From the NCBI GenBank assembly GCA_965249065.1, contig CBDFLG010000001.1, positions 1,286,646 to 1,350,645 of the forward strand: a stretch of DNA of 64,000 nt, written 5' to 3'. The notes under the pieces were generated by a model. It saw nothing but the letters and a program-made list of their open reading frames with translations, did not search any database and was not told the origin of the DNA. This DNA is from Dehalococcoidia bacterium. Lineage in GTDB: Bacteria; Chloroflexota; Dehalococcoidia; Lucifugimonadales; UBA3495. Position 1 is the stretch's first letter; each line of letters opens with the position of its first letter. Below are positions 35,011 through 62,264 of the stretch, piece after piece. Made by a program: the position numbers and the translations under genes.

Positions 35011-35946
35011 CTAGCCGGCCGGCTGCGGTTGGCTACCGACTAGGTTGAACCGTATGAAGGCTACGATCCTTTCTGTTGCTGCTCTGGCGGCCTCTTCGGT
35101 GATGTCGGCGCCGATGGTTGCCGGTATGGTTTCCCTGCCGCTGGCCTTTTGGAGGACTTCGGCCCGGCGTCCGGCTCTTGCCACGTCGTCCTCTTGGACC
35201 GTGATGGATACCTCGGCCACGACGTAGACGGAGTTGCCGCTCTGATCATTGCCTGTGAGCACGATGTCTGCTTCTCCCAAGTCGTCGGCCTGTTCGTCAG
35301 TGATCCGGCCTACTTGGGTAGCTTCGGCCATGAGGTCGTTGAGTTCGGTATTGTTTCTGGGGTTGGCGTGGGTCAGGAGCCGGGCGCCGGTGATTCCCAT
35401 GCTGCTTCGGACCGCACGTTGGGCCTTCACGGCGGCTGCGCTTTCGTAGTCGGCTCCCGCGAGGCGGCTCACGTGCCCGCCTATCCGGGCCATTTCGACC
35501 TTCATTTCCGAGAAGTCGGTTTCCAGCCTTGCTTGGCCATCCTTTAGTTGGGCAACGTCGGTCTCCAAGGTGGTGACGGAGGTCTTGAGGGCACCCACGT
35601 CGGTCTTGAGGGCACCTACGTCGATCTCCAAGGTGGTGACGGAGATCTTGAGGGCACCCACGTCGGTCTTGAGGGCGCCTACGTCGGTTTCCAAGGTGGC
35701 GACGGAGGTCTTGAGGGCGCTTACGTCGGTTTCCAAGGTGGCGACGGAGGTCTTGAGGGCACCCACGTCGGTTTCCAAGTTGGACACAGAGGTCTTGAGG
35801 GCGCCCACGTCGGTCCGGATCTCGAGTACTTGGGCCGGCAACTGCAGCAGTTCCTCGGTGAGGATATGCCGACGAATGGCGTCCCGGAGAACCGGGTTCT
35901 GTTCCATGGCGTCCAGTATGTCCTGGAAGGTGTTGATGGTGGTCAT
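35011..35946 (-). CDS. heptad-repeat coiled-coil protein with C-terminal DUF3782-type (nuclease-fold-like) domain
   Basis: Twelve 7-aa units of type TDVGALK / TSVATLE. The C-terminal ...DIVLTGND..SVYVVAEVSITVQEDDVARAGRRAEVLQKA... resembles, from memory, Thermus/cyanobacterial DUF3782 proteins. Confidence 0.65.
   Translation of the reverse strand: MTTINTFQDILDAMEQNPVLRDAIRRHILTEELLQLPAQVLEIRTDVGALKTSVSNLETDVGALKTSVATLETDVSALKTSVATLETDVGALKTDVGALKISVTTLEIDVGALKTDVGALKTSVTTLETDVAQLKDGQARLETDFSEMKVEMARIGGHVSRLAGADYESAAAVKAQRAVRSSMGITGARLLTHANPRNNTELNDLMAEATQVGRITDEQADDLGEADIVLTGNDQSGNSVYVVAEVSITVQEDDVARAGRRAEVLQKASGRETIPATIGADITEEAARAATERIVAFIRFNLVGSQPQPAG
35561..35812. repeat. 12 tandem 21-nt units (two alternating unit types) inside the CDS
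   Basis: Units are gtcttgagggcacccacgtcg and gtctccaaggtggtgacggag, in the order B A A B A A B A B A B A. Confidence 0.85.
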
Positions 35947-39427: not shown

Positions 39428-40410
39428 ATGCTTGACAAGATGCGAGGCTTTGCCCACCGGCTGACCCACTCCCACGGGTTCTAATACTTCATCATTGCGC
39501 TCATCCTGGCCAACGCCATTATGCTGGGTCTGGAGACTTTACCTTATGTGATGGATGGGTACGGGGAATGGATAAGCCTGGGCCATCGGGTTGACGTCTG
39601 GGAGTGTTCATCGTTGAAGGGGCGTTAAAGATATTCGCCGTTTCGCCGCGGGCTGACCGCTATTTCCGCGACGGCTGGAACGTCTTTGATTTTTCGATAA
39701 TCGTGTTCTCGCTGATCAAAATAGGTTTAGTAGACTCATCCCGGGTCTCCCTTATGTGATGGATGGGCGATCGTTGAAGCGGCGTTAAAGATATTCGCTG
39801 TTTCGCGTGGGCTGACCGCTATTTCCGCGACGGCTGGAACGTCTTTGATTTTTCGATAATCGTGTTCTCGCTGATCCCCGCGACCGGCGGATTCGCCGTC
39901 ATCGCACGGATGGCCCGGTTGTTGCGGCTGGTTTCCGCCGTGCCCGAACTGCGGCTGATTGTGTCCACGCTGGTCCGCTCGATTCCCAGTATGCTGCACA
40001 TCGTGGCCCTGATGAGCCTGATGGTATACGTCTACGCCATCATCGGTTACCAGCTATTCCACGAACACGACCCCCAGCACTGGCGCAACCTGGGCGTATC
40101 CCTGCTGTCGCTTTTCCAGGTGGTGACGCTGGAAGGCTGGGCCGAAATTATGTACAAGGCGATGGAGTATCACCCTCTGACCTGGATTTACTTCGTCAGC
40201 TCCGTGGCGCTGGGAACCTTCGTAGTGATCAATATGTTTATCGCGGTGGTAATCAATAACCTGGACGAAGCCAAGCAGGAGCGCCTCCGCGAACTGGAGC
40301 AGTCCCCAACCTCCGACTCCCTCCTGAGCGAATCCGCACGACCCAACAGTCCCTGCGCCGCCTGGAAGAGCAACTGCGACGACGCCGGGAGGACCGAAGA
40401 CGGGGGGTGA
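39428..40410 (+). pseudogene. bacterial voltage-gated sodium channel (NaChBac/BacNaV-like), disrupted
   Basis: MLDKMRGFAHRLTHSHGF-TAA-YFIIALILANAIMLGLET carries an in-frame stop at 39482. A frameshift lies near 39600 and a partial tandem duplication follows. The intact distal part has S4 ARMARLLRLVSAVPELRLIV and pore FQVVTLEGWAEIMY. Confidence 0.7.
39541..39877. repeat. imperfect tandem duplication within the channel gene
   Basis: ccttatgtgatggatggg...gttaaagatattcgc.gtttcgc...gctgaccgctatttccgcgacggctggaacgtctttgatttttcgataatcgtgttctcgctgatc occurs at 39541..39717. It recurs at 39748..39877, where the second copy has an internal deletion. Confidence 0.85.
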
Positions 40411-46658: not shown

Positions 46659-47042
46659 ATGGAACCGACAGTTTGGGTGCCCGCAGCCGGGGCAGTACTG
46701 AGTACGCTTATCGTATCTGGAGTGGCGTTGTTGATTTGGGGAATCAACACGCTGCTGAGAATGAACGACCGGCTGTCGAGACTGGAAATAGGCCAGGCGA
46801 ATTTGCAAGAAGGCCAGGCGAAGCTGGAAGCAGGTCAGGCGAGGCTGGAAGCAAGCCAGGCGAAGCTGGAAGCAGGTCAGGTTAAGCTGGAAGTAGGGCT
46901 GGCGAATGTGCAAGCAGGTCAGGTTAAGCTGGAAGCAGGGCTGGCGAATGTGCAAGCAGGTCAGGTTAAGCTGGAAGCAGGGCTGGATGAGATCCGTCGT
47001 CTGCTGAATTACTCGCGCATTCCCGCGGGGGAGAACCCGTAA
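46659..47042 (+). CDS. small membrane-anchored heptad-repeat protein (127 aa)
   Basis: TM helix AAGAVLSTLIVSGVALLIWGI, followed by nine 7-aa units GQAKLEA / GLANVQA. Located in the argJ-argB spacer. Confidence 0.55.
   Translation: MEPTVWVPAAGAVLSTLIVSGVALLIWGINTLLRMNDRLSRLEIGQANLQEGQAKLEAGQARLEASQAKLEAGQVKLEVGLANVQAGQVKLEAGLANVQAGQVKLEAGLDEIRRLLNYSRIPAGENP
46791..46979. repeat. nine tandem 21-nt units inside the CDS
   Basis: ggccaggcgaagctggaagca-type units. The last four units form near-perfect 42-nt repeats (ggtcaggttaagctggaagca gggctggcgaatgtgcaagca). Confidence 0.85.
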
Positions 47043-47914: not shown

Positions 47915-47927
47915 GCGCAGCGAGTTA

Positions 47928-47990
47928 CTCCACGTAGACCGCGCTCTTGGGCCGCGCCTTGCCGCCGTGCACCGATGGCTCGGCGCACCA
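47928..47990. repeat. 63-nt direct repeat, copy A (orphan 3' end of a 967-aa-gene homolog)
   Basis: Identical to 48406..48468. Read on the minus strand it encodes AAKWCAEPSVHGGKARPKSAVYVE-stop. Confidence 0.9.
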
Positions 47991-48090
47991 CTTGGCGGCG
48001 CAGGTAATTGATGCGGTTTCTGATTTGGCTTAATGACATGGTTTCAGCTCCGGCGCGTATTTGGATGGGCTGGCGGGCTGGAAATTTTCA

Positions 48091-48402: not shown

Positions 48403-51306
48403 TCACTCCACGTAGACCGCGCTCTTGGGCCGCGCCTTGCCGCCGTGCACCGATGGCTCGGCGCACCATTTTGCGGCCAGCCGCCGCACGCCCCGGTAGA
48501 CCTCCTCGTCGAAGCCCAGCAGATCGCAGACCACCCGCCGGTCCAGCAGCGCCCGGTTCGCGTCGGCGTCCGCCAGGTAGGCGGGCATCAAGTCAAGCTC
48601 GCGGAACTCGTCGAAGATGCCCTCGGCAGTGGCAAGCTGCGCGTCGCTCAGGGCGCGGAAGTCGAGGACGGGCAGCAATCGTATGACTAGCCGGGTTACA
48701 GTGGCTTTACTGGATTGTTGACGGGTCGAAAGCCACCAGTATGATAAAAGCCCCAAGGTGCAATTGCCCCACAGCGTAAAAGCCTGTTCAAACCTCTTAT
48801 CGCTAAAAGCAATGTTGGGCCATACACGCCCACCAATGGATTCCCGTTCCGTAAAGGCGACTGCAAGTGCTTGTGAGCCAAACGTAAAATCACGGTTCAG
48901 GTGTGCGCGACTGGCGGTTGCCCAAAGTTCAATGGCTCTGGTCTCCATTCCTCTGCGTACTCGCAACTGTGAATCAGGTTTGCATATCAGCCGAGTTTCT
49001 TGCTTGGCATCGTGATTGTATAGGGACGGATAAGTTGCTGTTGGACTCGCCTGTGCTTTCGTGAAGGGTCCTTTATGAGTTGTCATTGTCAGCATTGAAT
49101 CGTGAACGCCCAATTGCCCGACTTCTTGTAGCACAGTAATCGGCAGTTCAAGGACGCTCGGTTGCGCGGGCAAAAGGAGTTTTCCAGCAGAAAGCGAATG
49201 GGCAACTTGCGCTACCGAAGCATCCGCTATTCGGGCTGCGCCCCATCCCCTTTCATAGTCGCCAAGAGGGGCGTCCAAGATTTCACCAACCGGGGATTCG
49301 CCGACATGGATAGTAGAACCTCCGTAAGGCCCATCTTCCAAGCGGCGTACTCCGGTGGTATTCAAGACTGCTTTGGTGATTTCAGAAGCCTCGGCGAAAC
49401 CCGCTGGCCGGGCGGAAAGCGACACGAAGTTGGCGCGAAGGGATGGTCTTTGACTCTCGGCAATTCTGCGGGCGACTACCAAGCATTCCGCCATTCCCGT
49501 GTCAGATGAGAAGGACATATCCTTGCCGTTGGCGGAGATGCTCACTATGGTGATGTCGGTGTATTTGCCAGCTATCAGCTCCCGAAATTTCGCCCACGAA
49601 GCCCCATTGATTGCCGTGAATGGAAGGACGAAAGCCACTATCCCGCCGGGACGGACTTTCCGGTCGGCAAGAGCGGCAAAGGCGGAGGACTGCCCGGCGT
49701 GTCCGTGATAGCAGGTGTTTGCAGTCCGCGCCTTCATACGGGCCGCCATGTCATCCTGGTCTTTCTCGGAAGCGTCGAAGGCGGCAAAGGCGGCGTTCAC
49801 AACCCCGTCGTCAGCGTCGTAATGCTTGGTGTTGCTGGTAAAAGGCGGATTCATTATCACAAGGTGATAACTGAGATCCGACACTTCGACGTTGACGTGG
49901 GCGGCGGTTTCCTCGCCGGCGCTGCCGGTGCGTAGGGCGGGGTCGCTGGTGTTGAAGAGGGTCATCACCGACGACGATTGCAACAGCTCCAGCGAGCCGA
50001 TTTTGACGCTGCCGTCGTCCTGGCGTCCGTAGGGCATAGTGTAGAGGCGGGATTGACCGTAGCCAACTTCAGGCTGGATGCCGGAAAGGGTCGCGCCGGT
50101 GATGTGGATGGCGGAGGGCATAACATCACAGCCGTACAGGACGTCCTCCATCATCACTGGGTGGATGGCTGCGGGGTCGCCGCCGGAAAGTTCGTGGCGG
50201 GCGGCAAACTGCTCGTAGACCGCCGACAACAGGGCGCCGGTGCCGCAGGCGAAATCGCCGACGCGCAGCTTGCCGATGGCGTCGGGGCTGGCCCAATCCA
50301 CGCCCTCTAGCTTGGCGACGGCGAGGCGGGCCAGCAGCGCGGCGGAGGCTGGCAGGGTGTAAAACGTCGCCAGATACTTGCGGTCGGAAATCAGCCGCTG
50401 GAAAACGCGCCCGGTGAGATCATGGGCGTTGTTGACGCCGGAGCCGTTTATGCTGGCGGCAGTGCGACGCAGACGGCGCAAAACCCGCAGGGCGATGGCC
50501 TCCGGAAGCTGCGCCAAAATGTCCCGCCCGATAGCGAAGATGGGCCAATAGTTAATCTGGAGAATGGCAGTCCAAGCCTTCAGTGTTTGATCCTGCGGGT
50601 TGGCAATGGCGTCGCCGCAGACTAGGTTCAGCGGCTTGATGCCTTGGTGCATCCCCGCGATGCGCTCGTGGAAAATCATAGCGTTGGCGATGATGGCGCA
50701 GGCCATGCGGCGGGTCTGCGGCACGTTGTCCATCCCCAGCAGAGCGGCTATATCGGCGGTAACGGCGGGGCGCAGCTTGTCGGCTTCTTCCAGCACATTG
50801 GCAGTGTCGTTGATTCCTTCCTGCAACGCATCAGCCGCCTGTTCAACGGCGCTCTGCGGCACGGAAACCAGCCGAATGAAGTCGGCCAGGTCCAGACATC
50901 CGCCTTCCAGCCAGCCTTCCGTGGGGAACCGCACCGTGTTGGCGCCTTCAGTGGTGAAAAGGCAGTAGGACAGGCGGGCAGCAGCAACGGCGGCTTGCAG
51001 GTCGTCGGCGTCGCCCACATCCTCGGGATAGCGCAAAGCGATGGATGCCTCAATTGAGGAGTAGTTTCCGACAACTTTCAGGCCCAAACGCTCGAGAGCC
51101 TCTTTTTCCGCGGTGTAGGCCGGCAGGTATTCCGCTTCGACTGTGACCGGCGAGCGGTCGGGGCCGGTAATCAGGATGTCGGGGCGCAAACCGGAATGCC
51201 CTTCGATAATCTGGGTGTTCTCCGTAATCACGCTGGACTTGCCGAGCATCGGGCGGAGCAGGTTGCCCAAGGCATTGTTGGCGCTGGGTTCGATGTGGCG
51301 CGGCAT
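48403..51306 (-). CDS. 967-aa fusion: N-terminal nuclease-like region, gamma-class N6-adenine DNA methyltransferase core, large C-terminal region (type IIG-like)
   Basis: GGAGAGAG lies before ATG 51306. N-terminal RPDILITGPDRSPVTVEAEY. Methyltransferase motifs ATFYTLPASAALLA (motif X-like), VGDFACGTGALL (motif I) and LVIMNPPFTSN (motif IV). About 400 unassigned C-terminal residues. Confidence 0.7.
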   Translation of the reverse strand: MPRHIEPSANNALGNLLRPMLGKSSVITENTQIIEGHSGLRPDILITGPDRSPVTVEAEYLPAYTAEKEALERLGLKVVGNYSSIEASIALRYPEDVGDADDLQAAVAAARLSYCLFTTEGANTVRFPTEGWLEGGCLDLADFIRLVSVPQSAVEQAADALQEGINDTANVLEEADKLRPAVTADIAALLGMDNVPQTRRMACAIIANAMIFHERIAGMHQGIKPLNLVCGDAIANPQDQTLKAWTAILQINYWPIFAIGRDILAQLPEAIALRVLRRLRRTAASINGSGVNNAHDLTGRVFQRLISDRKYLATFYTLPASAALLARLAVAKLEGVDWASPDAIGKLRVGDFACGTGALLSAVYEQFAARHELSGGDPAAIHPVMMEDVLYGCDVMPSAIHITGATLSGIQPEVGYGQSRLYTMPYGRQDDGSVKIGSLELLQSSSVMTLFNTSDPALRTGSAGEETAAHVNVEVSDLSYHLVIMNPPFTSNTKHYDADDGVVNAAFAAFDASEKDQDDMAARMKARTANTCYHGHAGQSSAFAALADRKVRPGGIVAFVLPFTAINGASWAKFRELIAGKYTDITIVSISANGKDMSFSSDTGMAECLVVARRIAESQRPSLRANFVSLSARPAGFAEASEITKAVLNTTGVRRLEDGPYGGSTIHVGESPVGEILDAPLGDYERGWGAARIADASVAQVAHSLSAGKLLLPAQPSVLELPITVLQEVGQLGVHDSMLTMTTHKGPFTKAQASPTATYPSLYNHDAKQETRLICKPDSQLRVRRGMETRAIELWATASRAHLNRDFTFGSQALAVAFTERESIGGRVWPNIAFSDKRFEQAFTLWGNCTLGLLSYWWLSTRQQSSKATVTRLVIRLLPVLDFRALSDAQLATAEGIFDEFRELDLMPAYLADADANRALLDRRVVCDLLGFDEEVYRGVRRLAAKWCAEPSVHGGKARPKSAVYVE
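48406..48468. repeat. 63-nt direct repeat, copy B (true 3' end of the 967-aa gene)
   Basis: Identical to 47928..47990. Spacing between the copies is 478 bp. Confidence 0.9.
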
Positions 51307-53051: not shown

Positions 53052-53260
53052 TGAAGACTCGCGGATTCTACGTCCTCATCAAGGATGATGGTGAAGGCGG
53101 ATACATAGGAATAGCGCCGGAACTCAAAGGATGCTTGAGTCACGGTCTGACCCTCGATGAACTAATATCAAACATTGAAGAGGTTATACAATTGTGCCTG
53201 GAAGATGGGGAGGATGCAGAAAATCCCTGCTTCTTCGGCATCCAAAAAGTAACTGTCTAA
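53051..53260 (+). CDS. hicB: HicB-like (UPF0150) antitoxin-fold protein, copy 2
   Basis: FYVLIKDDGEGGYIGIAPELKGCLSHGLTLDELISNIEEVIQLCLED. The ATG overlaps the copy 1 stop (TGATG). Confidence 0.7.
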   Translation: MKTRGFYVLIKDDGEGGYIGIAPELKGCLSHGLTLDELISNIEEVIQLCLEDGEDAENPCFFGIQKVTV

Positions 53261-53264
53261 AAAT

Positions 53265-53489
53265 ATGAGCCGGATTCCAGCCCTTCGCGCCAGTGAGGTT
53301 GTCCGCGCTCTTAATCGTCTGGGCTTCCAGGTTATACGGCAGAAAGGCAGCCACATTCGACTCAAGCACCCGGATGGCCGGTACGCCAGCGTTCCCAGCC
53401 ACGGCGCAAGAGAATTTCGCAGAGAATTTATTCTCGACATTCTTAAGCAGGCCCGCGTTGACTTCTCCGATTTCCTCGCTGCCCTATAA
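53265..53489 (+). CDS. hicA: HicA-family mRNA interferase toxin
   Basis: LRASEVVRALNRLGFQVIRQKGSHIRLKHPDGRYASVPSHG...ILKQA. Confidence 0.75.
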   Translation: MSRIPALRASEVVRALNRLGFQVIRQKGSHIRLKHPDGRYASVPSHGAREFRREFILDILKQARVDFSDFLAAL

Positions 53490-56421: not shown

Positions 56422-56808
56422 ATGGGAACGTTCAGTGTGCCGATTCAGGTGGCAAGCCTTGAAAGGTCCGGCTTTGCTGAAATCGAAGCCTTGGTGGACA
56501 CGGGCGCAGTCCACAGCTACATCCCGAGGGACATATTGTATAGCGTAAACGCGCAACCCACCGAGATGCGCGAATTCGTCTATGCAGACGAGCGGGTAGA
56601 GGAAATCCCTTTCGGGTACATACGCTTTGTGGTTGAGGGGTTGGAAATCGTGGCGCCTGTGATTTTCGCCGACGAAGGAATGGCGCCATTATTGGGAGCT
56701 ACCACTCTGGAAGCGGGTCACTTTGTCGTAGACCCTATCCACAATCGCCTAACTCCCATTATACCGCCTGGGAGATCCGGCAACGGACGGCCAATTGTGC
56801 GTCGCTGA
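56422..56808 (+). CDS. retropepsin-like (clan AA) aspartic protease
   Basis: ALVDTGAVHSYIP contains the D-T-G active-site motif. Size is about 128 aa. Confidence 0.65.
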   Translation: MGTFSVPIQVASLERSGFAEIEALVDTGAVHSYIPRDILYSVNAQPTEMREFVYADERVEEIPFGYIRFVVEGLEIVAPVIFADEGMAPLLGATTLEAGHFVVDPIHNRLTPIIPPGRSGNGRPIVRR

Positions 56809-56927: not shown

Positions 56928-58064
56928 ATGGACTTGGGCCTTACCGAAATCCAGCAGATGCTTAAGAACAGCGTGCAGGAGTTCCTCGCGCGGGAATGTC
57001 CCACCACGCTGGTGCGGGAAATGGAGGAAGACGAGCGCGGCTATCCCGATGAACTCTGGCGGCAGATAGCCGGGTTGGGTTGGGCCGGTGTGCCGTTCCC
57101 GGAGCAGTACGGCGGCACCGGCGGCGATTTCCTCGACTTGGCAGTGTTGCTGGAAGAGATGGGGCGCGTCCTTGCTCCCAGCCCATATTTCTCCACCGTC
57201 GTACTGGGTGGGCTGACCGTGCTGGACGCTGGCAGCGACGCGCAGAAGAATGACCTGCTCAGCCGCGTCTGCGACGGCAGCGGGCTTATGACCCTAGCGG
57301 TCACCGAGGCCTCGGCCAGCTACGATGCCTGGGGGGTGGAAACCACCGCCACCGCCGACGGCACCGGCTATGCGCTGCACGGCACCAAACTGTTCGTGCC
57401 TGACGCCCACGTCGCCGACGTGATTATCGTGGCTGCCCGGACTGCCCAGGGAGGCGACCCTGCGGCGGGCATTACCTTGTTTCTGGTTCCGGCCAGGATG
57501 GAGGGATTGGAAATTTCGCCAATCCGCACCATCGGCTCCGAACGGCAGTTCGAGGTGTCGCTGAACAACGTTCGGCTGCCTGCCAGCATGATCCTGGGTG
57601 AAGTGAACGGCGGATGGCCGATAGCGGAGCGGGCCCTCCATCGGGCCATAGCCGGCCACTGTGTGACCATGCTGGGCGGCGCCTCCGCCGTGTTGGATAT
57701 GACCGTCGAGTATGTCAAGCAGCGGACACAGTTTGGGCGTCCCGTGGGCAGCTTCCAGGCGGTCCAGCATCACTGCGCCCAGATGGCCACCGACGTCGAG
57801 GGCTGCCGGGGCGTGGCCTACCAAGCGGCGTGGCGGCTGGCCCAGGAAATGCCGGCCCAGCGAGAAGTGTCGATTGCCAAGGCCTGGATTAGCCAGGCCT
57901 ACCGCCGCGTCTGCGCCACCGCTCACCAGTGCCACGGCGCCATCGGCTTCACCAAAGAGCACGACTTGCAGCTTTACACCCGCCGGGCCAAAGTCCAGGA
58001 AATCGGCTACGGCGACGCCAACTATCACAAGGAACTGGCCCTGGCCAGCATCGACAACGAGTAA
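56928..58064 (+). CDS. acyl-CoA dehydrogenase
   Basis: FPEQYGGTGGDFLD, ...TEASASYD..., QFGRPVGSFQAVQHHCA and GAIGFTKEHDLQLYTRR. Confidence 0.9.
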   Translation: MDLGLTEIQQMLKNSVQEFLARECPTTLVREMEEDERGYPDELWRQIAGLGWAGVPFPEQYGGTGGDFLDLAVLLEEMGRVLAPSPYFSTVVLGGLTVLDAGSDAQKNDLLSRVCDGSGLMTLAVTEASASYDAWGVETTATADGTGYALHGTKLFVPDAHVADVIIVAARTAQGGDPAAGITLFLVPARMEGLEISPIRTIGSERQFEVSLNNVRLPASMILGEVNGGWPIAERALHRAIAGHCVTMLGGASAVLDMTVEYVKQRTQFGRPVGSFQAVQHHCAQMATDVEGCRGVAYQAAWRLAQEMPAQREVSIAKAWISQAYRRVCATAHQCHGAIGFTKEHDLQLYTRRAKVQEIGYGDANYHKELALASIDNE

Positions 58065-58091
58065 CAAGGCGTTACGAGGGCAAAAGGGGTG

Positions 58092-58553
58092 ATGACAGCT
58101 TCAGCTTCCAACAAATACGCCGCCGCCAGCCGCTGCTTTATTGATCAAGCAAAAGCGGAACTGCAAATTGAAGATTTTGTTCAGGCGTCGGAAAAGGCTT
58201 GGGGCGCGGCGGCTTGCGCCCTCAAAGCGGTGGCCGAGCAGAGGGAATGGAACCATCGCAAGCACTCGCTGCTCTACGATGTGTCCGGGCAAATCGCCGA
58301 CGAATTGGCCCAACCGAGCCTGCTGGAAAGGTTCGGTGTAGCCAACGCTCTACACCAGAACTACTATGAAGACTGGATACCTGAAGAGGTCGTAGCGAAC
58401 TACATCGAGAGTATCGAGGCGCTGGTAAGTGAACTGGAGGACGTTCGCCGGAACCCGACGCCACCCTTCACCATTGAGACGCGCGCCCAACGAAGGCGGC
58501 TGGACAGGCTGACCGCCAAGAGTGAACCAACGGTTGATATTCCATCAGAATAA
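58092..58553 (+). CDS. small helical HEPN/PaREP1-like protein, tandem copy 1
   Basis: MTASASNKYAAASRCFIDQAKAELQIEDFVQASEKAWGAAACALKAVAEQREWNHRKHSLLYDV...ALHQNYYEDW... AAAAGGGG lies before the ATG. Confidence 0.7.
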   Translation: MTASASNKYAAASRCFIDQAKAELQIEDFVQASEKAWGAAACALKAVAEQREWNHRKHSLLYDVSGQIADELAQPSLLERFGVANALHQNYYEDWIPEEVVANYIESIEALVSELEDVRRNPTPPFTIETRAQRRRLDRLTAKSEPTVDIPSE

Positions 58554-58647
58554 GGAATGTGGGACTGCCAATGACCACTACTACGCAATGTATTTTCTGC
58601 TCCATCAGCGGCGGGTAGCACGGCATAATGAGGGGTGTAAACGAACG

Positions 58648-59109
58648 ATGACAGCTTCAGATTCCAACAAATACGCCGCCGCCAGTCGCCGCTTTATAGG
58701 GCAGGCCAAAGACGAACTGGAGATTGGCGATTTAATTCAGGCGTCGGATAAGGCTTGGGGGGCGGCGGCTACTGCCCTTAAAGCGGTGGCCGAGCAGCGG
58801 GAATGGAACCACCGGAAGCATTCCCTGCTCTACGATGTCTCCGGGCAAATCGCCGATGAACTGGCCCGCCCCGGCCTACGGGAACGGTTCGGGCTGGCCA
58901 ATGCCCTGCATCAGAACTTCTATGAAAACTGGATGCCGGATAGCGAAGTAGAGAGCGCCATCGGCAGCATAGAGGCGCTGGTAAGTGAACTGGAGGACGT
59001 TCGCCGGAACCCGGCGACACCCTTCACCATCGAGACGCGCGCCCAACGAAGGCGGCTGGACAGGCTGACCGCCAAGAGTGAACCAACGGTTGATATTCCA
59101 TCAGAATAA
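58648..59109 (+). CDS. small helical HEPN/PaREP1-like protein, tandem copy 2
   Basis: MTASDSNKYAAASRRFIGQAKDELEIGDLIQASDKAWGAAATALKAVAEQREWNHRKHS...LHQNFYENW... The track's longer ORF (58522) reads through the upstream unit. Confidence 0.7.
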   Translation: MTASDSNKYAAASRRFIGQAKDELEIGDLIQASDKAWGAAATALKAVAEQREWNHRKHSLLYDVSGQIADELARPGLRERFGLANALHQNFYENWMPDSEVESAIGSIEALVSELEDVRRNPATPFTIETRAQRRRLDRLTAKSEPTVDIPSE

Positions 59110-59217
59110 GGAATGTGGGACTGCCAATGACCACTGCCACGCAATGTATTTTCTGCAGCGAGTGACCTTGCAACAGTAGGGATAAGGGAACAGGAGCGAG
59201 GGAGACTGACGGCGCCA

Positions 59218-59676
59218 ATGACAACCCCCAACAACAAATACGCCGCTCTCAGTCGGCTCTATATGGAGCGGGCCGAAGGCTACCTACGACAGGAGGACTT
59301 CCTGCAAGCCTCGGAAAAGTCTTGGGGGGCGGCGGCCTGCGCCCTTAAATCCATCGCCCAGCAGCGGGGCTGGGGCCACCAGTCCCACTCCCTGCTCTAC
59401 GACGTTTCCGGTCAAATTGCCGATGAGCAGGGCCGCCCGGAACTGCGGAATCTATTCGCTGTCGCCAAATCCATGCACCAGAATTTCTACGAAAACTGGA
59501 TGCCGGAAGATGAAGTGGCGCATGGCGTTGGCCGAGTTAAGGCATATCTGACCGAACTGGAATCCATGAGCGCCCAACCGGCGACACCCTTCACCATCGA
59601 GACGCGCGCCCAACGAAGGCGGCTGGACAGGCTGACCGCCAAGAGTGAACCAATGGTTGATATTCCATCAGAATAA
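59218..59676 (+). CDS. small helical HEPN/PaREP1-like protein, tandem copy 3 (most divergent)
   Basis: MTTPNNKYAALSRLYMERAEGYLRQEDFLQASEKSWGAAACALKSIAQQRGWGHQSHS...MHQNFYENW... Confidence 0.7.
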   Translation: MTTPNNKYAALSRLYMERAEGYLRQEDFLQASEKSWGAAACALKSIAQQRGWGHQSHSLLYDVSGQIADEQGRPELRNLFAVAKSMHQNFYENWMPEDEVAHGVGRVKAYLTELESMSAQPATPFTIETRAQRRRLDRLTAKSEPMVDIPSE

Positions 59677-59693
59677 GGAATGTGGGACTGCCA

Positions 59694-60044
59694 ATGACCA
59701 CTACTACGCAATGTATTTTCTGCTCCATTGCCCGCGACTCGGCCCACCCGGAAGCGATTTATCGCGATGACCGCTGTTTCGTGGTCAAGGACATCAACCC
59801 CAAAGCGCCGGTGCATCTGCTGGTCATTCCCAATATGCACATCGCGTCGCTGGCCTACGTCGGCCCGGGCCAGGTTCCCATCATGGGGCACCTGTTCGTT
59901 GTGGCCGAGGAGATGGCCCGCCGCGAGAACGTTACCCTCAGCGGCTACCGCTTGGTGCTGAACCAGGGGACGGATGCCGGCCAGCAGATTGTCCACCCCC
60001 ACATTCACCTGCTGGGCGGGCGGCAGCTTGGGGAGATGGGATGA
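59694..60044 (+). CDS. HIT-family (HinT-like) nucleotide hydrolase/transferase
   Basis: CIFCSI, PKAPVHLLVIPN and the histidine triad VHPHIHLLGG. Confidence 0.85.
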   Translation: MTTTTQCIFCSIARDSAHPEAIYRDDRCFVVKDINPKAPVHLLVIPNMHIASLAYVGPGQVPIMGHLFVVAEEMARRENVTLSGYRLVLNQGTDAGQQIVHPHIHLLGGRQLGEMG

Positions 60045-60634
60045 CGGCCAGCCCCACCTGCCAAATTGCCAACGTTAGATTCCGGGAGCGCTTTGAATCG
60101 CTGCCTGACAAGCTGCAAGCCCACGTATTCCGGGCGCGCGACGTGGGGCTGGAACTGGCGTCGCGGCACGGCATAGATGAGGGGCGCGCGGAACTGGCGG
60201 TTTTGGCCCACGACGTTGCCCGCGCTGCGAATAAGCCGGAAATGCTGCGGCTGGCCGACCAGTTCGGGCTGCCCACGCTGGACATTGAGCGGCGCGCGCC
60301 CATCCTGCTGCACGGGCCGGTGGGCGCGGAACTGCTGCGCCGCGAGGACGGGCTGGACGACCTTGAGATTCTGGAGGCGGTGCGCTGGCACTCCACCGGA
60401 CACCCGGACCTGACCCCGCTGGGCCTGCTGGTGTTCATCGCCGACAAGCTCGACCCGCGCAAGGTCAAGTCCTATCCCTACCAGCCGGAACTGCGGGACA
60501 TCGCCAACGAAAGCCTGCGTCAAGCCGTGCTGGAATTCCTATGCCGCGAGTCGGCCCGCCGCCTGGAGCGCCGCGAGCCAGTGCACCCGGCCAGCATAGC
60601 AACTATCAACGCGCTGCTGACAGCCGACGTCTAG
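60041..60634 (+). CDS. yqeK: HD-domain protein YqeK (bis(5'-nucleosyl)-tetraphosphatase type)
   Basis: LAHDVARA, LLHGPVGAELLRRE.GLDDLEILEAVRWHSTG and VFIADKLDPRK align by eye to B. subtilis YqeK. The ATG overlaps the HIT stop (ATGA). Confidence 0.7.
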   Translation: MTASPTCQIANVRFRERFESLPDKLQAHVFRARDVGLELASRHGIDEGRAELAVLAHDVARAANKPEMLRLADQFGLPTLDIERRAPILLHGPVGAELLRREDGLDDLEILEAVRWHSTGHPDLTPLGLLVFIADKLDPRKVKSYPYQPELRDIANESLRQAVLEFLCRESARRLERREPVHPASIATINALLTADV

Positions 60635-60817: not shown

Positions 60818-62119
60818 TTAGGAAGTGGGTGACTTGGCAGCTTTCGCGGCAATTTTGGGCTTGGGCTTGTCCGCCTCCCGGTATCGCTTGTAGCTGGCAA
60901 AGTTCGTGCCGCCTAGCTTCAGCAGCCGCTTCTCCTCGCTTTCAGGTACGCCGGCCTTCTCCAGCGCCTTGAACAATCGCGTTTCCGCCGCTTCCCAGCC
61001 CTTACGCGCCCGCATCGCCTCCGATAGCTTTCCTGCCGTCGCCTCCAATTCCGCCACCGACTTCAAGACCACAGGCTTGCCGCTTTTAGGCTTGGCTGGT
61101 TCCGCTGGCTTGTACGCCGCTTTTGCTTGCCGGTACTCCGCTTGGGAGGTGGTTGCTATCTTCAATAGCCGTTTCCATTCCGATTCAGGCAGGCCCGCCT
61201 TGACCAGCATATTCAAGAACTTATTCTGCGCTCCGTCTACCACTCGATTCGAACGACCATCAATCAACGCAGACGTTACCTTCTCCGCAGCCGCTTCCAG
61301 TTCAGCCGCCGACTTCAAATCAGCGGGCTTGTCTTGCTTGTCGCTTTCCGGTTTGGCTTGCTTCCCGACGGTTTGTAGGAAGTGGGTGACTTCGTCGTCT
61401 TTGTTTCGGTCGTATGCCTTTTGAAGGTTGTCGGCAAAGCTATTGCTCCTCCTCCTTATATCTGATTGTTGACTCTGGCCGACGCCAACCAGATAGTCGT
61501 CTATCCCAGGCACCGGGATAATGGTTGACGCCTGTACGTAAAGGGAATCAGTTTGGGCGTCGCGGTACGGAGTTAATTTGATGCAAGTGATGAGGTTTTT
61601 GCCGGTAACTTTCTGGTTGAGCCACAGGGCTGCAGAGGTGACTTCCGGGGCGAATCGGTGGCTGGCCAGGATGATGCGCTGGTCGTTGTTCAGCGCGGTT
61701 AGGCCGTCGGCGTTCAAGTGTTTTAGCAGCCGGGTCCGGGCTTCTTCCTCGGATTCAGTCCAGTATTTCGCCGCTATTCCAACGATTGCATCGGCAGAAG
61801 TCCCCTGAAAATAGCTGGCGTATTTTATGGCCTGCCAGTGGGCGTCTGCGCCGGTGTAGTCCCGCTTCAGTTCGATAACTACCAGCTTGCCGTCCGAATC
61901 AACAGCCAGCAGGTCAAGCCTTTCGTTGGTGCGGTCGAAGCCGCTGAATTCTTTGCTGATTATCAGCAGGTCGTCGCCGAGGATGCCAGAGTTGGCTTCT
62001 ACCCACTCCTGGATGTCCTGCCGCTCGCGCAGTCCCAATCGGGCGAAGTCAACTTCTTCAATCCGGTTGGACTCCCGAGTATTGGGGTCAACCCTGAACA
62101 ACTGCGATTCACCGCTCAT
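60818..62119 (-). CDS. NucS/DUF91-like PD-(D/E)XK nuclease domain fused to two Lys/Ala/Glu-rich C-terminal repeats
   Basis: AGGAG lies before ATG 62119. LGLRERQDIQEWVEANSGILGDDLLIISKEFSGFDRTNERLDLLAVDSDGKLVVIELKRD. The C-terminal module KP..LKS.AELEA.A.K...AG.PESE.KRLLK occurs twice. Lower GC than the flanks. Confidence 0.65.
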   Translation of the reverse strand: MSGESQLFRVDPNTRESNRIEEVDFARLGLRERQDIQEWVEANSGILGDDLLIISKEFSGFDRTNERLDLLAVDSDGKLVVIELKRDYTGADAHWQAIKYASYFQGTSADAIVGIAAKYWTESEEEARTRLLKHLNADGLTALNNDQRIILASHRFAPEVTSAALWLNQKVTGKNLITCIKLTPYRDAQTDSLYVQASTIIPVPGIDDYLVGVGQSQQSDIRRRSNSFADNLQKAYDRNKDDEVTHFLQTVGKQAKPESDKQDKPADLKSAAELEAAAEKVTSALIDGRSNRVVDGAQNKFLNMLVKAGLPESEWKRLLKIATTSQAEYRQAKAAYKPAEPAKPKSGKPVVLKSVAELEATAGKLSEAMRARKGWEAAETRLFKALEKAGVPESEEKRLLKLGGTNFASYKRYREADKPKPKIAAKAAKSPTS

Positions 62120-62264
62120 GCCGTCTCCTGCCAGGTGGCAGCATTGTCGTTGATGCGCCGCTCTGGATACCAAAGCTCAGACAGTCTACAATGGGGTCTA
62201 GCAAGTTTCAACGAAAATCACCCGGACGCGGCTGGCAACGAGCCGCGGCTGTTAGGTCAACATT

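What the first reader, a model, noticed from the sequence alone, without database searches (positions are those of the whole stretch)
58092..59730. Three-fold tandem array of a HEPN/PaREP1-like gene, each unit ending in a near-invariant 137-nt block that includes a stub of the hit gene
Three paralogous ~153-codon genes (58092, 58648, 59218) lie head to tail, with periods of 556 and 570 bp. The body of copy 3 differs from copies 1 and 2 at many nucleotide and amino-acid positions.

The last 137 nt of every unit are almost identical, with 1-4 substitutions between copies (58464..58600, 59020..59156, 59587..59723). This block covers four elements:
- The last ~30 codons (FTIETRAQRRRLDRLTAKSEP.VDIPSE).
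- The stop codon.
- The spacer AAGGAATGTGGGACTGCCA.
- The first ~10 codons of the HIT gene (MTT.TQCIFC).

Copies 1 and 2 are therefore each followed by a dead hit stub (MTTTTQCIFCSISGG-stop and MTTATQCIFCSE-stop). Only copy 3 is followed by the real hit gene. Divergent cassette bodies with homogenised 3' junctions point to repeated unequal recombination or gene conversion through the block, or to cassette-like acquisition upstream of hit.

All copies keep EK.WGAA, R-x-W-x-H-x-x-H and LHQN(F/Y)YE(N/D)W. From memory this resembles archaeal PaREP1-type four-helix proteins, and the R...H spacing is compatible with a HEPN R-x4-6-H motif.
Basis: partly seen in the sequence, partly recalled or inferred. 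Interest (0 to 1): 0.7.

Follow-up and report, generated by a model that had tools for sequence, protein, structure and literature searches.

The report
Tandem PaREP1 gene triplet, 3' ends homogenised
Three diverged copies of a small HEPN-type (PaREP1) gene sit head to tail in a Dehalococcoidia genome, and ongoing copy-to-copy gene conversion keeps their last ~146 bases almost identical; this is a clear but ordinary example of how tandem gene families evolve.

Summary
Three PaREP1 (PF05942) genes lie at 58092-58553, 58648-59109 and 59218-59676. Each ends in a ~146-nt block that is 98-99% identical between units. The block holds the last ~32 codons, the stop, a 17-nt spacer and the first 30-35 nt of the downstream HIT gene.

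The gene bodies are old paralogs under purifying selection (dS 0.5-1.4, dN/dS 0.23-0.40). The block has dS 0-0.04, including its non-coding and dead-stub parts.

Three independent strain-level assemblies all carry three copies. In one strain, 13 of 13 differences in copy 2 and 9 of 14 in copy 1 match the other copy. This shows gene conversion still operating.

In 22 related Dehalococcoidia loci the slot between the acyl-CoA dehydrogenase and HIT-YqeK genes holds one PaREP1 gene (19 loci) or two (3 loci). The window is therefore a lineage-specific expansion. The body of copy 3 is orthologous to the usual single-copy gene, but its tail is of the copy-1/2 type.

The block shows no RNA structure, terminator, Rfam match or recombinase. 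The protein has the HEPN fold (top structural hit 2q00).

Verdict: real, mostly explained, modest novelty.

The parts
56928..58064 (+). Acyl-CoA dehydrogenase gene, the conserved left border of the PaREP1 slot
   Evidence: Pfam Acyl-CoA_dh_N/M/1. It is 86-91% identical in 19 syntenic Dehalococcoidia loci.
58092..58553 (+). PaREP1 copy 1 (T2-type body)
   Evidence: PF05942, E 1.1e-15. The body clusters with L005 and L006 genes. dN/dS against c2 is 0.23.
58453..58605 (+). Homogenised block 1: the last ~32 codons of c1, the stop (58551-58553), a 17-nt spacer (58554-58570) and the hit head (35 nt, through TCCAT)
58571..58618 (+). Dead hit stub 1 (MTTTTQCIFCSISGG*)
   Evidence: Sequence read directly. 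It is identical to the real hit start for 35 nt.
58606..58647 (+). Joint 1: sequence homologous to the region upstream of c1, including the ACAD stop codon (about 66% identity, the level expected for neutral sites at dS 0.5)
   Evidence: MAFFT alignment and sequences. The homology of the first ~13 nt to the ACAD tail is inferred.
58648..59109 (+). PaREP1 copy 2 (T2-type body; E34D at a position that is 97% conserved)
   Evidence: PF05942, E 1.7e-19. In strain L001 the patch 58661-58728 is converted to the c1 sequence.
59009..59156 (+). Homogenised block 2: c2 tail, stop (59107-59109), spacer (59110-59126) and hit head (30 nt)
59127..59165 (+). Dead hit stub 2 (MTTATQCIFCSE*). It keeps the GCC codon that other species have in their real hit gene.
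59157..59217 (+). Joint 2: starts with AGCGAGTGA, which resembles the ACAD 3' end of related species, followed by the spacer upstream of c3
   Evidence: The homology is weak and is an inference only.
59218..59676 (+). PaREP1 copy 3, a chimera. The body is orthologous to the single-copy gene of other Dehalococcoidia (T3); the tail is of the c1/c2 type.
   Evidence: PF05942, E 1.9e-17. Body and tail trees disagree. dS to c1/c2 is 0.86-1.43 in the body and 0-0.04 in the tail.
59576..59728 (+). Homogenised block 3: c3 tail, stop, spacer (59677-59693) and the start of the real hit gene
59694..60044 (+). HIT (HinT-like) gene, the conserved right border of the slot
   Evidence: PF01230, E 4.5e-21. 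NF007965, E 3.8e-25, below its cut-off. Syntenic in 19 genomes.
60041..60634 (+). HD-domain YqeK (Ap4A hydrolase family) gene, overlapping hit by 4 nt
   Evidence: TIGR00488, 101.9 bits against a cut-off of 70; PF01966.

Best explanation
This is a lineage-specific tandem expansion of a small PaREP1 (HEPN-T clade) gene. In this group of Dehalococcoidia the gene normally sits as a single copy between an acyl-CoA dehydrogenase gene and a HIT-YqeK pair.

**How the array formed (inferred).** The expansion arose by tandem duplication or unequal crossing-over of a ~560-bp unit. The unit ran from the last codons of the dehydrogenase gene to about codon 10-12 of hit. Every unit except the last therefore ends in a dead hit head.

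**State of the copies (shown).** The gene bodies are old paralogs that are all still under purifying selection.

**Why the 3' ends match (shown for the process, inferred for the block).** The 3' ~146 nt of each unit covers the conserved Arg-rich C-terminal tail, the stop, the spacer and the hit head. Recurrent non-reciprocal homologous recombination (gene conversion) between the copies keeps it 98-99% identical. The end of homology at the duplication joint sets the 3' limit of conversion. The more diverged body sets the 5' limit. Copy 3 is a product of this process: a T3 body with a T2-type tail.

**What the protein is.** The fold is shown: a four-helix HEPN-fold bundle. The activity is inferred: the protein probably binds or cleaves RNA or nucleotides through a non-canonical site (H88/N90/Y92/E93, plus R51/H55/H58 from the insert).

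**Transcription (inferred).** The three genes are probably co-transcribed with hit and yqeK, because each has an SD-like sequence and no terminator separates them.
For: **Family and fold.**
- PF05942 matches all three copies.
- The AlphaFold model has pLDDT 90, and its top Foldseek hits are 2q00 and HEPN structures.

**Single copy is the ancestral state.** The order cupin, aspartic protease, ACAD, PaREP1, HIT, HD is kept in 19 species genomes. Seventeen have one PaREP1 gene and two have two. Three metagenome contigs add counts of 2, 1 and 1.

**The copies are old and functional.**
- Body dS is 0.53, 0.86 and 1.43, and dN/dS is 0.23-0.40.
- All three copies keep the residues that are at least 93% conserved in 104 Chloroflexota homologs, apart from the conservative E34D change in copy 2.

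**Homogenisation is not due to protein-level selection.**
- Tail dS is 0-0.04.
- The 17-nt spacer plus dead stubs are 96-100% identical, while the spacer upstream of c2 is only about 66% identical to that upstream of c1.
- The permutation test gave 0 of 20,000 for each pair.

**Mosaic history.** The c3 body sits in the clade of single-copy orthologs, but its tail groups with c1/c2.

**Conversion is caught in progress.** In strain L001, all 13 differences in c2 at 58661-58728 equal the c1 state. In c1, 9 of 14 differences equal the c2 state, seven of them in the 58193-58223 patch and one at 58475 inside the block.

**Alternatives for the block lack support.**
- The RNA fold z-score is +0.81.
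- No terminator was found and the single promoter-like match, upstream of ACAD, is no more than chance expectation.
- Rfam gave nothing.

**Similar duplication scars at the same slot elsewhere.**
- L015 has a degenerate hit stub and a 44-nt identical tail end.
- L005 has an ACAD-tail joint.
Against: - The three bodies do not form one clade. c1/c2 group with L005/L006 genes and c3 with other species' genes. The duplication is therefore either much older than this lineage, followed by differential loss, or at least one body was imported.
- The ACAD-tail remnants at the joints are short (9-13 nt) and could be chance.
- Another two-copy locus (L085) shows no stub and no homogenised tail, so the pattern is not universal.
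- No experiment exists on any PaREP1 protein, so the biochemical role is inference only.
- Co-transcription has not been shown.
Confidence: 0.75

Rival explanations
1. Cassette-like additive acquisition. Divergent PaREP1 alleles from other strains or species were added one after another upstream of hit. The route could be homology-facilitated illegitimate recombination, or integration of a circularised [ACAD tail-PaREP1-hit head] fragment by a single crossover in the conserved tail or hit head. The shared block would then be the recombination handle.
For: - Body phylogeny is incongruent with a within-lineage duplication.
- Each unit is bounded by what look like an ACAD tail and a hit head.
- Joint 2 starts with AGCGAGTGA, which is closer to other species' ACAD ends than to the window's own.
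- The flanking-gene tree is star-like, and T2 carriers are not clearly monophyletic.
- The neighbouring aspartic-protease gene also shows irregular identity between species, 95% to L012 against about 60% to the others.
Against: - L005 keeps a decayed T3 gene downstream of its T2 genes, in the same order as here. This fits an old vertical T2-T3 pair with differential loss.
- No recombinase, integrase or mobile-element gene lies within about 5 kb.
- G+C content of the copies is 0.56-0.59 against 0.61 for the window, so it is not strikingly foreign.
- Strain data show conversion between resident copies, which is sufficient to explain the block.
Confidence: 0.15
2. The block is conserved because its nucleotide sequence is itself functional. 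It could be an RNA element, a promoter or RBS module for the downstream gene, or a protein-binding site, and would be kept by selection rather than by recombination.
For: - The block contains the SD-like AAGGA and the start codon of hit.
- A short identical tail end also recurs in L015.
Against: - The fold is no more stable than shuffles (z +0.81, 161 of 200 shuffles fold as well).
- No Rfam, terminator or promoter signal was found in the block.
- The same region differs substantially between species (W against L006/L007).
- Selection cannot explain strain polymorphisms that copy the paralog's state, or the chimeric tail of c3.
Confidence: 0.05
3. Assembly artefact: strain variants of a single-copy locus were concatenated or expanded by the assembler.
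For: The source is a metagenome assembly in which at least three closely related strains coexist.
Against: - Three separate contigs, with 77x and 11x coverage labels plus the window's own source, share the same three-unit layout with no indels.
- The units differ by 18-33%, far more than the roughly 0.2-0.7% differences between strains.
- The joints are unique sequences, and related species have 2-copy versions.
Confidence: 0.02

Closest known systems
Archaeal paREP1/paREP8 family (Pfam PF05942; HEPN-T(Parep1/8) of Anantharaman et al. 2013, PMC3710099; structure 2q00/2jpu)
   Same: - Pfam match well above threshold.
- Same four-helix HEPN fold.
- Conserved histidine at the end of helix 3 with the arginine missing.
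- Occurs as multi-copy families and in tandem gene repeats (Table 1 of PMC3710099).
- No MNT partner (PMC2701414).
   Different: - Bacterial: the best 80 of more than 550 genome hits are all Chloroflexota or Dehalococcoidia MAGs, apart from one MAG titled only 'bacterium'.
- It lacks the N-terminal extension with weak RHH similarity seen in archaeal members.
- It has a C-terminal Arg-rich tail (F-x-x-E-T-R-A-Q-R-R-R-L-x-R-L-T) with no Pfam match.
- It has an extra, nearly invariant R51/W53/H55/H58 cluster in the helix-2/3 insert, which 2q00 lacks.
Concerted evolution of duplicated bacterial genes by gene conversion (for example tufA/tufB of Salmonella; own knowledge, not checked here)
   Same: - Non-reciprocal transfer between resident paralogs.
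- Patchy tracts.
- Synonymous and non-coding sites are homogenised.
   Different: - Only the 3' quarter of the unit is kept identical, while the bodies stay diverged.
- The tract includes a dead fragment of the neighbouring gene.
HepT/MntA (HEPN-MNT, type VII toxin-antitoxin)
   Same: HEPN fold; 6m6u is among the weaker Foldseek matches.
   Different: - No adjacent nucleotidyltransferase.
- No canonical Rx4-6H motif.
- PF05168 scores below its cut-off (13.3 against 22 bits, and only for c2).
- No PADLOC hit.
Orphan cassette arrays of polymorphic toxin loci (CDI, Rhs; own knowledge)
   Same: Variable modules in tandem that share a short constant segment usable for homologous recombination.
   Different: - The constant part here is C-terminal plus a neighbour-gene stub.
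- There is no large delivery protein and there are no immunity genes.
- No evidence of toxin function.

Membership tests
PaREP1/PaREP8 (PF05942) | Profile match above Pfam's gathering score | tested here: met
   58.0, 70.3 and 63.7 bits against a cut-off of 24.4; E 1e-15 to 2e-19.
PaREP1/PaREP8 (PF05942) | HEPN-T four-helix bundle like 2q00 | tested here: met
   AlphaFold model with pLDDT 90.2. The best Foldseek hit is 2q00_A (TM 0.78 normalised on the target, rmsd 2.1 Å over 116 columns). A profile search of PDB sequences finds 2jpu/2q00 at E 7.7e-5.
PaREP1/PaREP8 (PF05942) | Motif histidine conserved and motif arginine absent (PMC3710099, Table 1) | tested here: met
   H88 is 97% conserved in 104 homologs and aligns to the histidine of 2jpu. 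Positions 82-84 are G/A, L/V, A.
PaREP1/PaREP8 (PF05942) | Archaeal distribution, often with an N-terminal RHH-like extension | tested here: not met
   The host is a Dehalococcoidia bacterium. The domain starts at residue ~9 and the extension is C-terminal. The archaeal homolog P0058 has a weak N-terminal RHH hit.
PaREP1/PaREP8 (PF05942) | Genes found in tandem repeats or lineage-specific expansions | tested here: met
   3 copies here, at least 12 in L026, 3 in each of L044, L066 and L076, and several loci per genome.
Canonical HEPN RNase | Rx4-6H at the end of helix 3 | tested here: not met
   There is no arginine 4-6 residues before H88. The R51...H58 motif is in the helix-2/insert loop. PF05168 gives E 0.096, below its cut-off, for c2 only.
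HEPN-MNT (HepT/MntA) toxin-antitoxin | Adjacent minimal nucleotidyltransferase gene | tested here: not met
   The neighbours are ACAD, HIT and HD. No recurrent partner appeared in 61 other loci, but that clustering was noisy.
Known anti-phage defence systems (PADLOC) | Match to a defence-system protein model | tested here: not met
   No hits for any of the three copies.
Integron-type or site-specific cassette array | Integrase/recombinase plus structured attachment sites at the cassette ends | tested here: not met
   No recombinase lies among the called genes within about 5 kb. The block has no significant fold.
Concerted evolution by gene conversion | Local collapse of synonymous and non-coding divergence between paralogs | tested here: met
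   dS is 0-0.04 in the tail against 0.53-1.43 in the body. Permutation gave 0 of 20,000.
Concerted evolution by gene conversion | Segments of one gene with conflicting phylogenies | tested here: met
   The c3 body falls in the T3 clade and its tail groups with c1/c2 and the T2 genes. These are NJ trees without bootstrap, and the tail is only about 30 residues.
Concerted evolution by gene conversion | Polymorphic patches in one strain that equal the paralog's sequence | tested here: met
   In strain L001, 13 of 13 sites at 58661-58728 equal the c1 state, and 9 of 14 differing sites in c1 equal the c2 state.

The most novel reading that the evidence does not exclude
The PaREP1 arrays of Dehalococcoidia (3 copies here, at least 12 mosaic copies in L026) could be a recombining, diversifying set of HEPN-like effectors or sensors in a conflict or defence role. 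In this reading the constant Arg-rich C-terminal tail is kept identical on purpose. It would couple variable bodies to one shared partner, possibly the co-located HinT/YqeK nucleotide hydrolases. That would be an MNT-less analogue of HEPN-MNT control by nucleotidylation.
Probability: 0.07. Interest if true: 0.75.

Novelty: new member of a known kind. Interest (0 to 1): 0.33.

Why it matters
- It gives a clean, strain-resolved example of gene conversion acting on only part of a tandem gene unit. The dead neighbour-gene stub serves as an internal neutral control.
- It shows that PaREP1, which Pfam names and the 2013 HEPN survey lists as archaeal, has a large and distinct subfamily in Chloroflexota, with hundreds of genes, several loci per genome and arrays of up to at least 12 copies.
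- That subfamily has a conserved chromosomal position next to HIT-YqeK in one clade.
- No PaREP1 protein has a known activity. This bacterial subfamily, with its invariant R/H/H/H/N/E residues, offers testable candidates.
- The array itself does not reveal a new mechanism.

Tried and rejected
- **Tandem Repeats Finder** found nothing, because the period exceeds 500.
- **Functional element in the block:** the RNA fold, the promoter/terminator scan and Rfam were all negative, so this reading was rejected.
- **Defence annotation:** PADLOC and NCBIfam gave no family for the PaREP1 copies.
- **The tail alone:** Pfam gave no hit, including no RHH.
- **A recurrent partner gene:** clustering neighbours in 61 non-syntenic loci was too noisy with raw ORFs. 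No MNT or other consistent neighbour appeared. A large FAD-oxidase-like gene recurs convergently in one syntenic group.
- **Closer relatives or copy-number variants in JGI metagenomes:**
  - The exact 54-nt search found nothing.
  - The protein-based scan found nothing above 49% identity.
- **Exact look-up of window copy 1** was not on record. The look-up of copy 2 indicates a further contig longer than 1 Mb that was not shown.
- **An early mistake, corrected:** I first assumed the window equals contig L001. One search showed it is a third variant, and the strain comparison was redone.
- **Species tree from the flanking genes** is star-like and does not settle vertical against lateral origin of the T2 and T3 bodies.
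Full report

Yes. The + strand carries three ORFs at 58092-58553, 58648-59109 and 59218-59676 (153, 153 and 152 aa), with periods of 556 and 570 bp.

A 139-nt pattern from the unit's 3' end occurs only at 58462-58600, 59018-59156 and 59585-59723, with 1-2 mismatches. No shuffle produced a match. Alignment of the units shows about 82% (u1/u2) and about 67% (u1/u3) identity over the bodies and near-identity over the last ~146 nt.

The block contains four things:
- the last ~32 codons;
- the stop codon;
- the spacer GGAATGTGGGACTGCCA;
- the first 30 nt (unit 2) or 35 nt (units 1 and 3) of the HIT gene.

Units 1 and 2 are therefore followed by dead stubs at 58571-58618 and 59127-59165. The real HIT gene starts at 59694.

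Column permutation shows the clustering of identity is not chance. The longest run with at most 2 mismatches is 125-139 nt, against a maximum of 57-105 nt in 20,000 permutations per pair.

**2. Is the copy number real?**

The window is one of three strain-level variants. The other two are contigs of ENA assembly ERZ25766727: a 4.3-Mb contig labelled 77x and a 16-kb contig labelled 11x. They differ from the window at 49 and 22 positions over 9,164 bp and have no indels. All three carry the same three units.

The units differ from each other by 18-33%, far more than the strains do. An assembly artefact is therefore very unlikely.

**3. What are the genes?**

All three match Pfam PaREP1 (PF05942) at 58-70 bits against a cut-off of 24.4.

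An AlphaFold model of copy 2 (pLDDT 90.2) has these helices:

| Helix | Residues |
|---|---|
| Helix 1 | 8-25 |
| Helix 2 | 29-50 |
| Insert helix | 58-72 |
| Helix 3 | 76-93 |
| Helix 4 | 98-120 |
| Tail helix | 131-141 |

Its best PDB matches are 2q00/2jpu, a Sulfolobus PaREP1-family protein. HEPN structures 2hsb, 1ufb, 1o3u and 1wol follow.

According to Anantharaman et al. [quoted passage not shown] The same holds here. H88, in LHQNFYENW, is 97% conserved in 104 Chloroflexota homologs and has no arginine 4-6 residues upstream.

It lies in the loop between helix 2 and the insert helix, so it is not the canonical motif. It may supply the 'other conserved basic residues' that the paper invokes; that is inference.

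The remaining family searches were negative or weak:
- PF05168 (HEPN) is below its threshold.
- PADLOC and NCBIfam give nothing.
- Archaeal relatives carry an N-terminal extension with weak RHH similarity.
- These bacterial proteins instead have a C-terminal Arg-rich tail (F..ETRAQRRRL.RLT) with no Pfam match.

**4. Context and relatives**

A scan of one genome per species found more than 550 relatives. The best 80 are all in Dehalococcoidia or Chloroflexota MAGs, apart from one titled only 'bacterium', and there are often several loci per genome.

In 19 of these genomes the gene order cupin, clan-AA aspartic protease, acyl-CoA dehydrogenase, PaREP1, HIT, HD(YqeK) is conserved. Seventeen have one PaREP1 gene in the slot and two (L005, L015) have two. 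Three further metagenome contigs have 2, 1 and 1. The window's three copies are therefore a local expansion of a normally single gene.

Elsewhere, tandem arrays are common. L026 has at least 12 copies with shuffled tail types. L044, L066 and L076 have three each. This matches the 'tandem repeats' noted for archaeal Parep genes. HIT adjacency is limited to this syntenic group, and no MNT or other recurrent partner was found.

**5. History of the array**

*Divergence.*

| Pair | Body dN | Body dS |
|---|---|---|
| c1/c2 | 0.12 | 0.53 |
| c2/c3 | 0.35 | 0.86 |
| c1/c3 | 0.35 | 1.43 |

dN/dS is 0.23-0.40, so all three copies are constrained and old. The last 32 codons have dS 0-0.04.

The non-coding spacer and the dead stubs are 96-100% identical. 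In contrast, the non-coding stretch upstream of copy 2 is only about 66% identical to that upstream of copy 1, which is about what dS 0.5 predicts. Protein-level selection therefore cannot explain the block.

*Phylogeny.* Neighbour-joining trees show that the body of c3 belongs with the single-copy orthologs of other species (type T3). The bodies of c1 and c2 belong with the L005 and L006 genes (type T2). The tail of c3 groups with c1/c2 and the T2 tails. Copy 3 is therefore a chimera.

*Joints.* The stretch before copy 2 aligns with the stretch before copy 1, including the dehydrogenase stop codon. The stretch before copy 3 begins with AGCGAGTGA, which resembles dehydrogenase 3' ends. This suggests units that ran from the dehydrogenase tail to about codon 10-12 of hit. 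These remnants are short, so this remains an inference.

*Related loci.* They show similar scars:
- L005 has two 95%-identical T2 copies joined through a dehydrogenase tail. A decayed T3 gene follows (N-terminal NKYAAMSRD fused to the last codons SEPL*) before hit.
- L015 has a degenerate hit stub after copy 1 and a 44-nt identical tail end.

The L005 remnant, in the same T2-then-T3 order, favours an old T2/T3 pair with differential loss. Lateral import of one body cannot be excluded. The flanking-gene tree is star-like and does not decide the question.

**6. Gene conversion caught in progress**

Strain L001 was compared with the window and L002.
- Copy 2 differs at 13 sites in 58661-58728, and all 13 equal the copy 1 state.
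- Copy 1 differs at 14 sites, and 9 of these equal the copy 2 state. Seven of the nine lie in the 58193-58223 patch, and one is at 58475 inside the block.

These exchanges happened within less than 1% strain divergence. Inter-copy conversion is therefore an active process in this population, and it is sufficient to explain the homogenised block.

A plausible reason for the block's location is that the tail is the most conserved coding part across the family. Together with the hit head, it offers the longest identical stretches for homologous pairing. The duplication joint ends the homology on the 3' side. This reasoning is inference.

**7. Alternatives tested**

- The block folds no better than shuffles (z +0.81).
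- The region has no terminator-like site, and its one promoter-like match, upstream of ACAD, is no more than chance expectation.
- There are no Rfam matches.
- No recombinase gene lies nearby.
- G+C of the copies (0.56-0.59) is slightly below the window mean of 0.61.

**8. Function**

*Shown:*
- PaREP1 family membership.
- HEPN fold.
- Purifying selection on all copies.
- The conserved residue set.

*Inferred:*
- An RNA- or nucleotide-binding protein, or a non-canonical RNase.
- Probable co-transcription with hit-yqeK, because each gene has an SD-like sequence and there are no terminators.

Only seven full-text papers in the library mention PaREP1, and none of the four I read reports an experiment on any PaREP1 protein.

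**9. Verdict**

The object is a new bacterial member of a known family, shaped by a known process: tandem duplication plus partial concerted evolution. It is neat and well documented but not surprising, and I score its interest at about 0.33.

The most novel reading not excluded is that these arrays are a diversifying HEPN-like conflict system whose constant tail is a shared adaptor. I give that a probability of about 0.07.

Noticed in passing
window 60818-62173 (-): A 451-aa protein just downstream of yqeK matches the PADLOC candidate defence family PDC-S11 (E 9e-68) and has a NucS-like nuclease region (NF003270, E 1.6e-7). Homologs sit at the same place in L085 and L087.
   Followed up: partly
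window 56422-56808 (+); L010 1825-2690; L005 1883-2675; L085 1434-2255: The small clan-AA aspartic-protease-like gene (TIGR03698, below its cut-off) upstream of the dehydrogenase gene also varies in copy number between species. In L010 the duplication left a stub of the last 23 codons of the cupin gene (100% aa identity) between the two copies, the same kind of scar as the hit stubs. Its identity to the window is 95% in L012 but about 60% elsewhere.
   Followed up: partly
L026 1-6041 (OZ243978.1, Dehalococcoidia MAG): At least 12 PaREP1 genes lie head to tail, and the array runs off the locus. Three tail types are combined with different bodies. Some copies are nearly identical five units apart (845 and 3477), which suggests higher-order duplication plus recombination.
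   Followed up: partly
L005 4950-5057 (OZ243924.1): A decayed T3-type PaREP1 remnant (NKYAAMSRD...SEPL*, internal deletion, no start codon) lies between the two intact T2 copies and hit.
   Followed up: yes
L085 3983-4447: The second PaREP1 copy at the same slot in another metagenome contig has lost conserved residues (ASKKSWAAA; LFENYYKCW, with the motif histidine replaced). It shows no stub and no homogenised tail, so it may be degenerating or taking on a new function.
   Followed up: partly
window about 53218-53489 (+): A HicB-like/HicA toxin-antitoxin pair lies upstream of argG, according to the precomputed Pfam hits on contig L001. In L087 the equivalent position holds a fused nucleotidyltransferase-HEPN gene.
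   Followed up: no
window 35488-35834 and 46740-47012: Two separate arrays of about 9-10 imperfect 21-nt (7-codon) tandem repeats, 60-84% identical, probably inside coding regions.
   Followed up: no
window 47927-47999 / 48405-48477 and 39610-39717 / 39770-39876: Two pairs of short, nearly identical direct repeats: 73 nt at 97% identity, 478 bp apart, and about 108 nt at 95-99% identity, 160 bp apart.
   Followed up: no
window 57050-58728 compared with L001: Strain differences are concentrated in the 3' half of the dehydrogenase gene, in copy 1 and at the start of copy 2: about 2% here against about 0.1% in the rest of the 9-kb comparison. Copy 3, hit and most of yqeK are identical in all three strains. 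Part of this is inter-copy conversion. The differences in the dehydrogenase gene may reflect imported DNA.
   Followed up: partly
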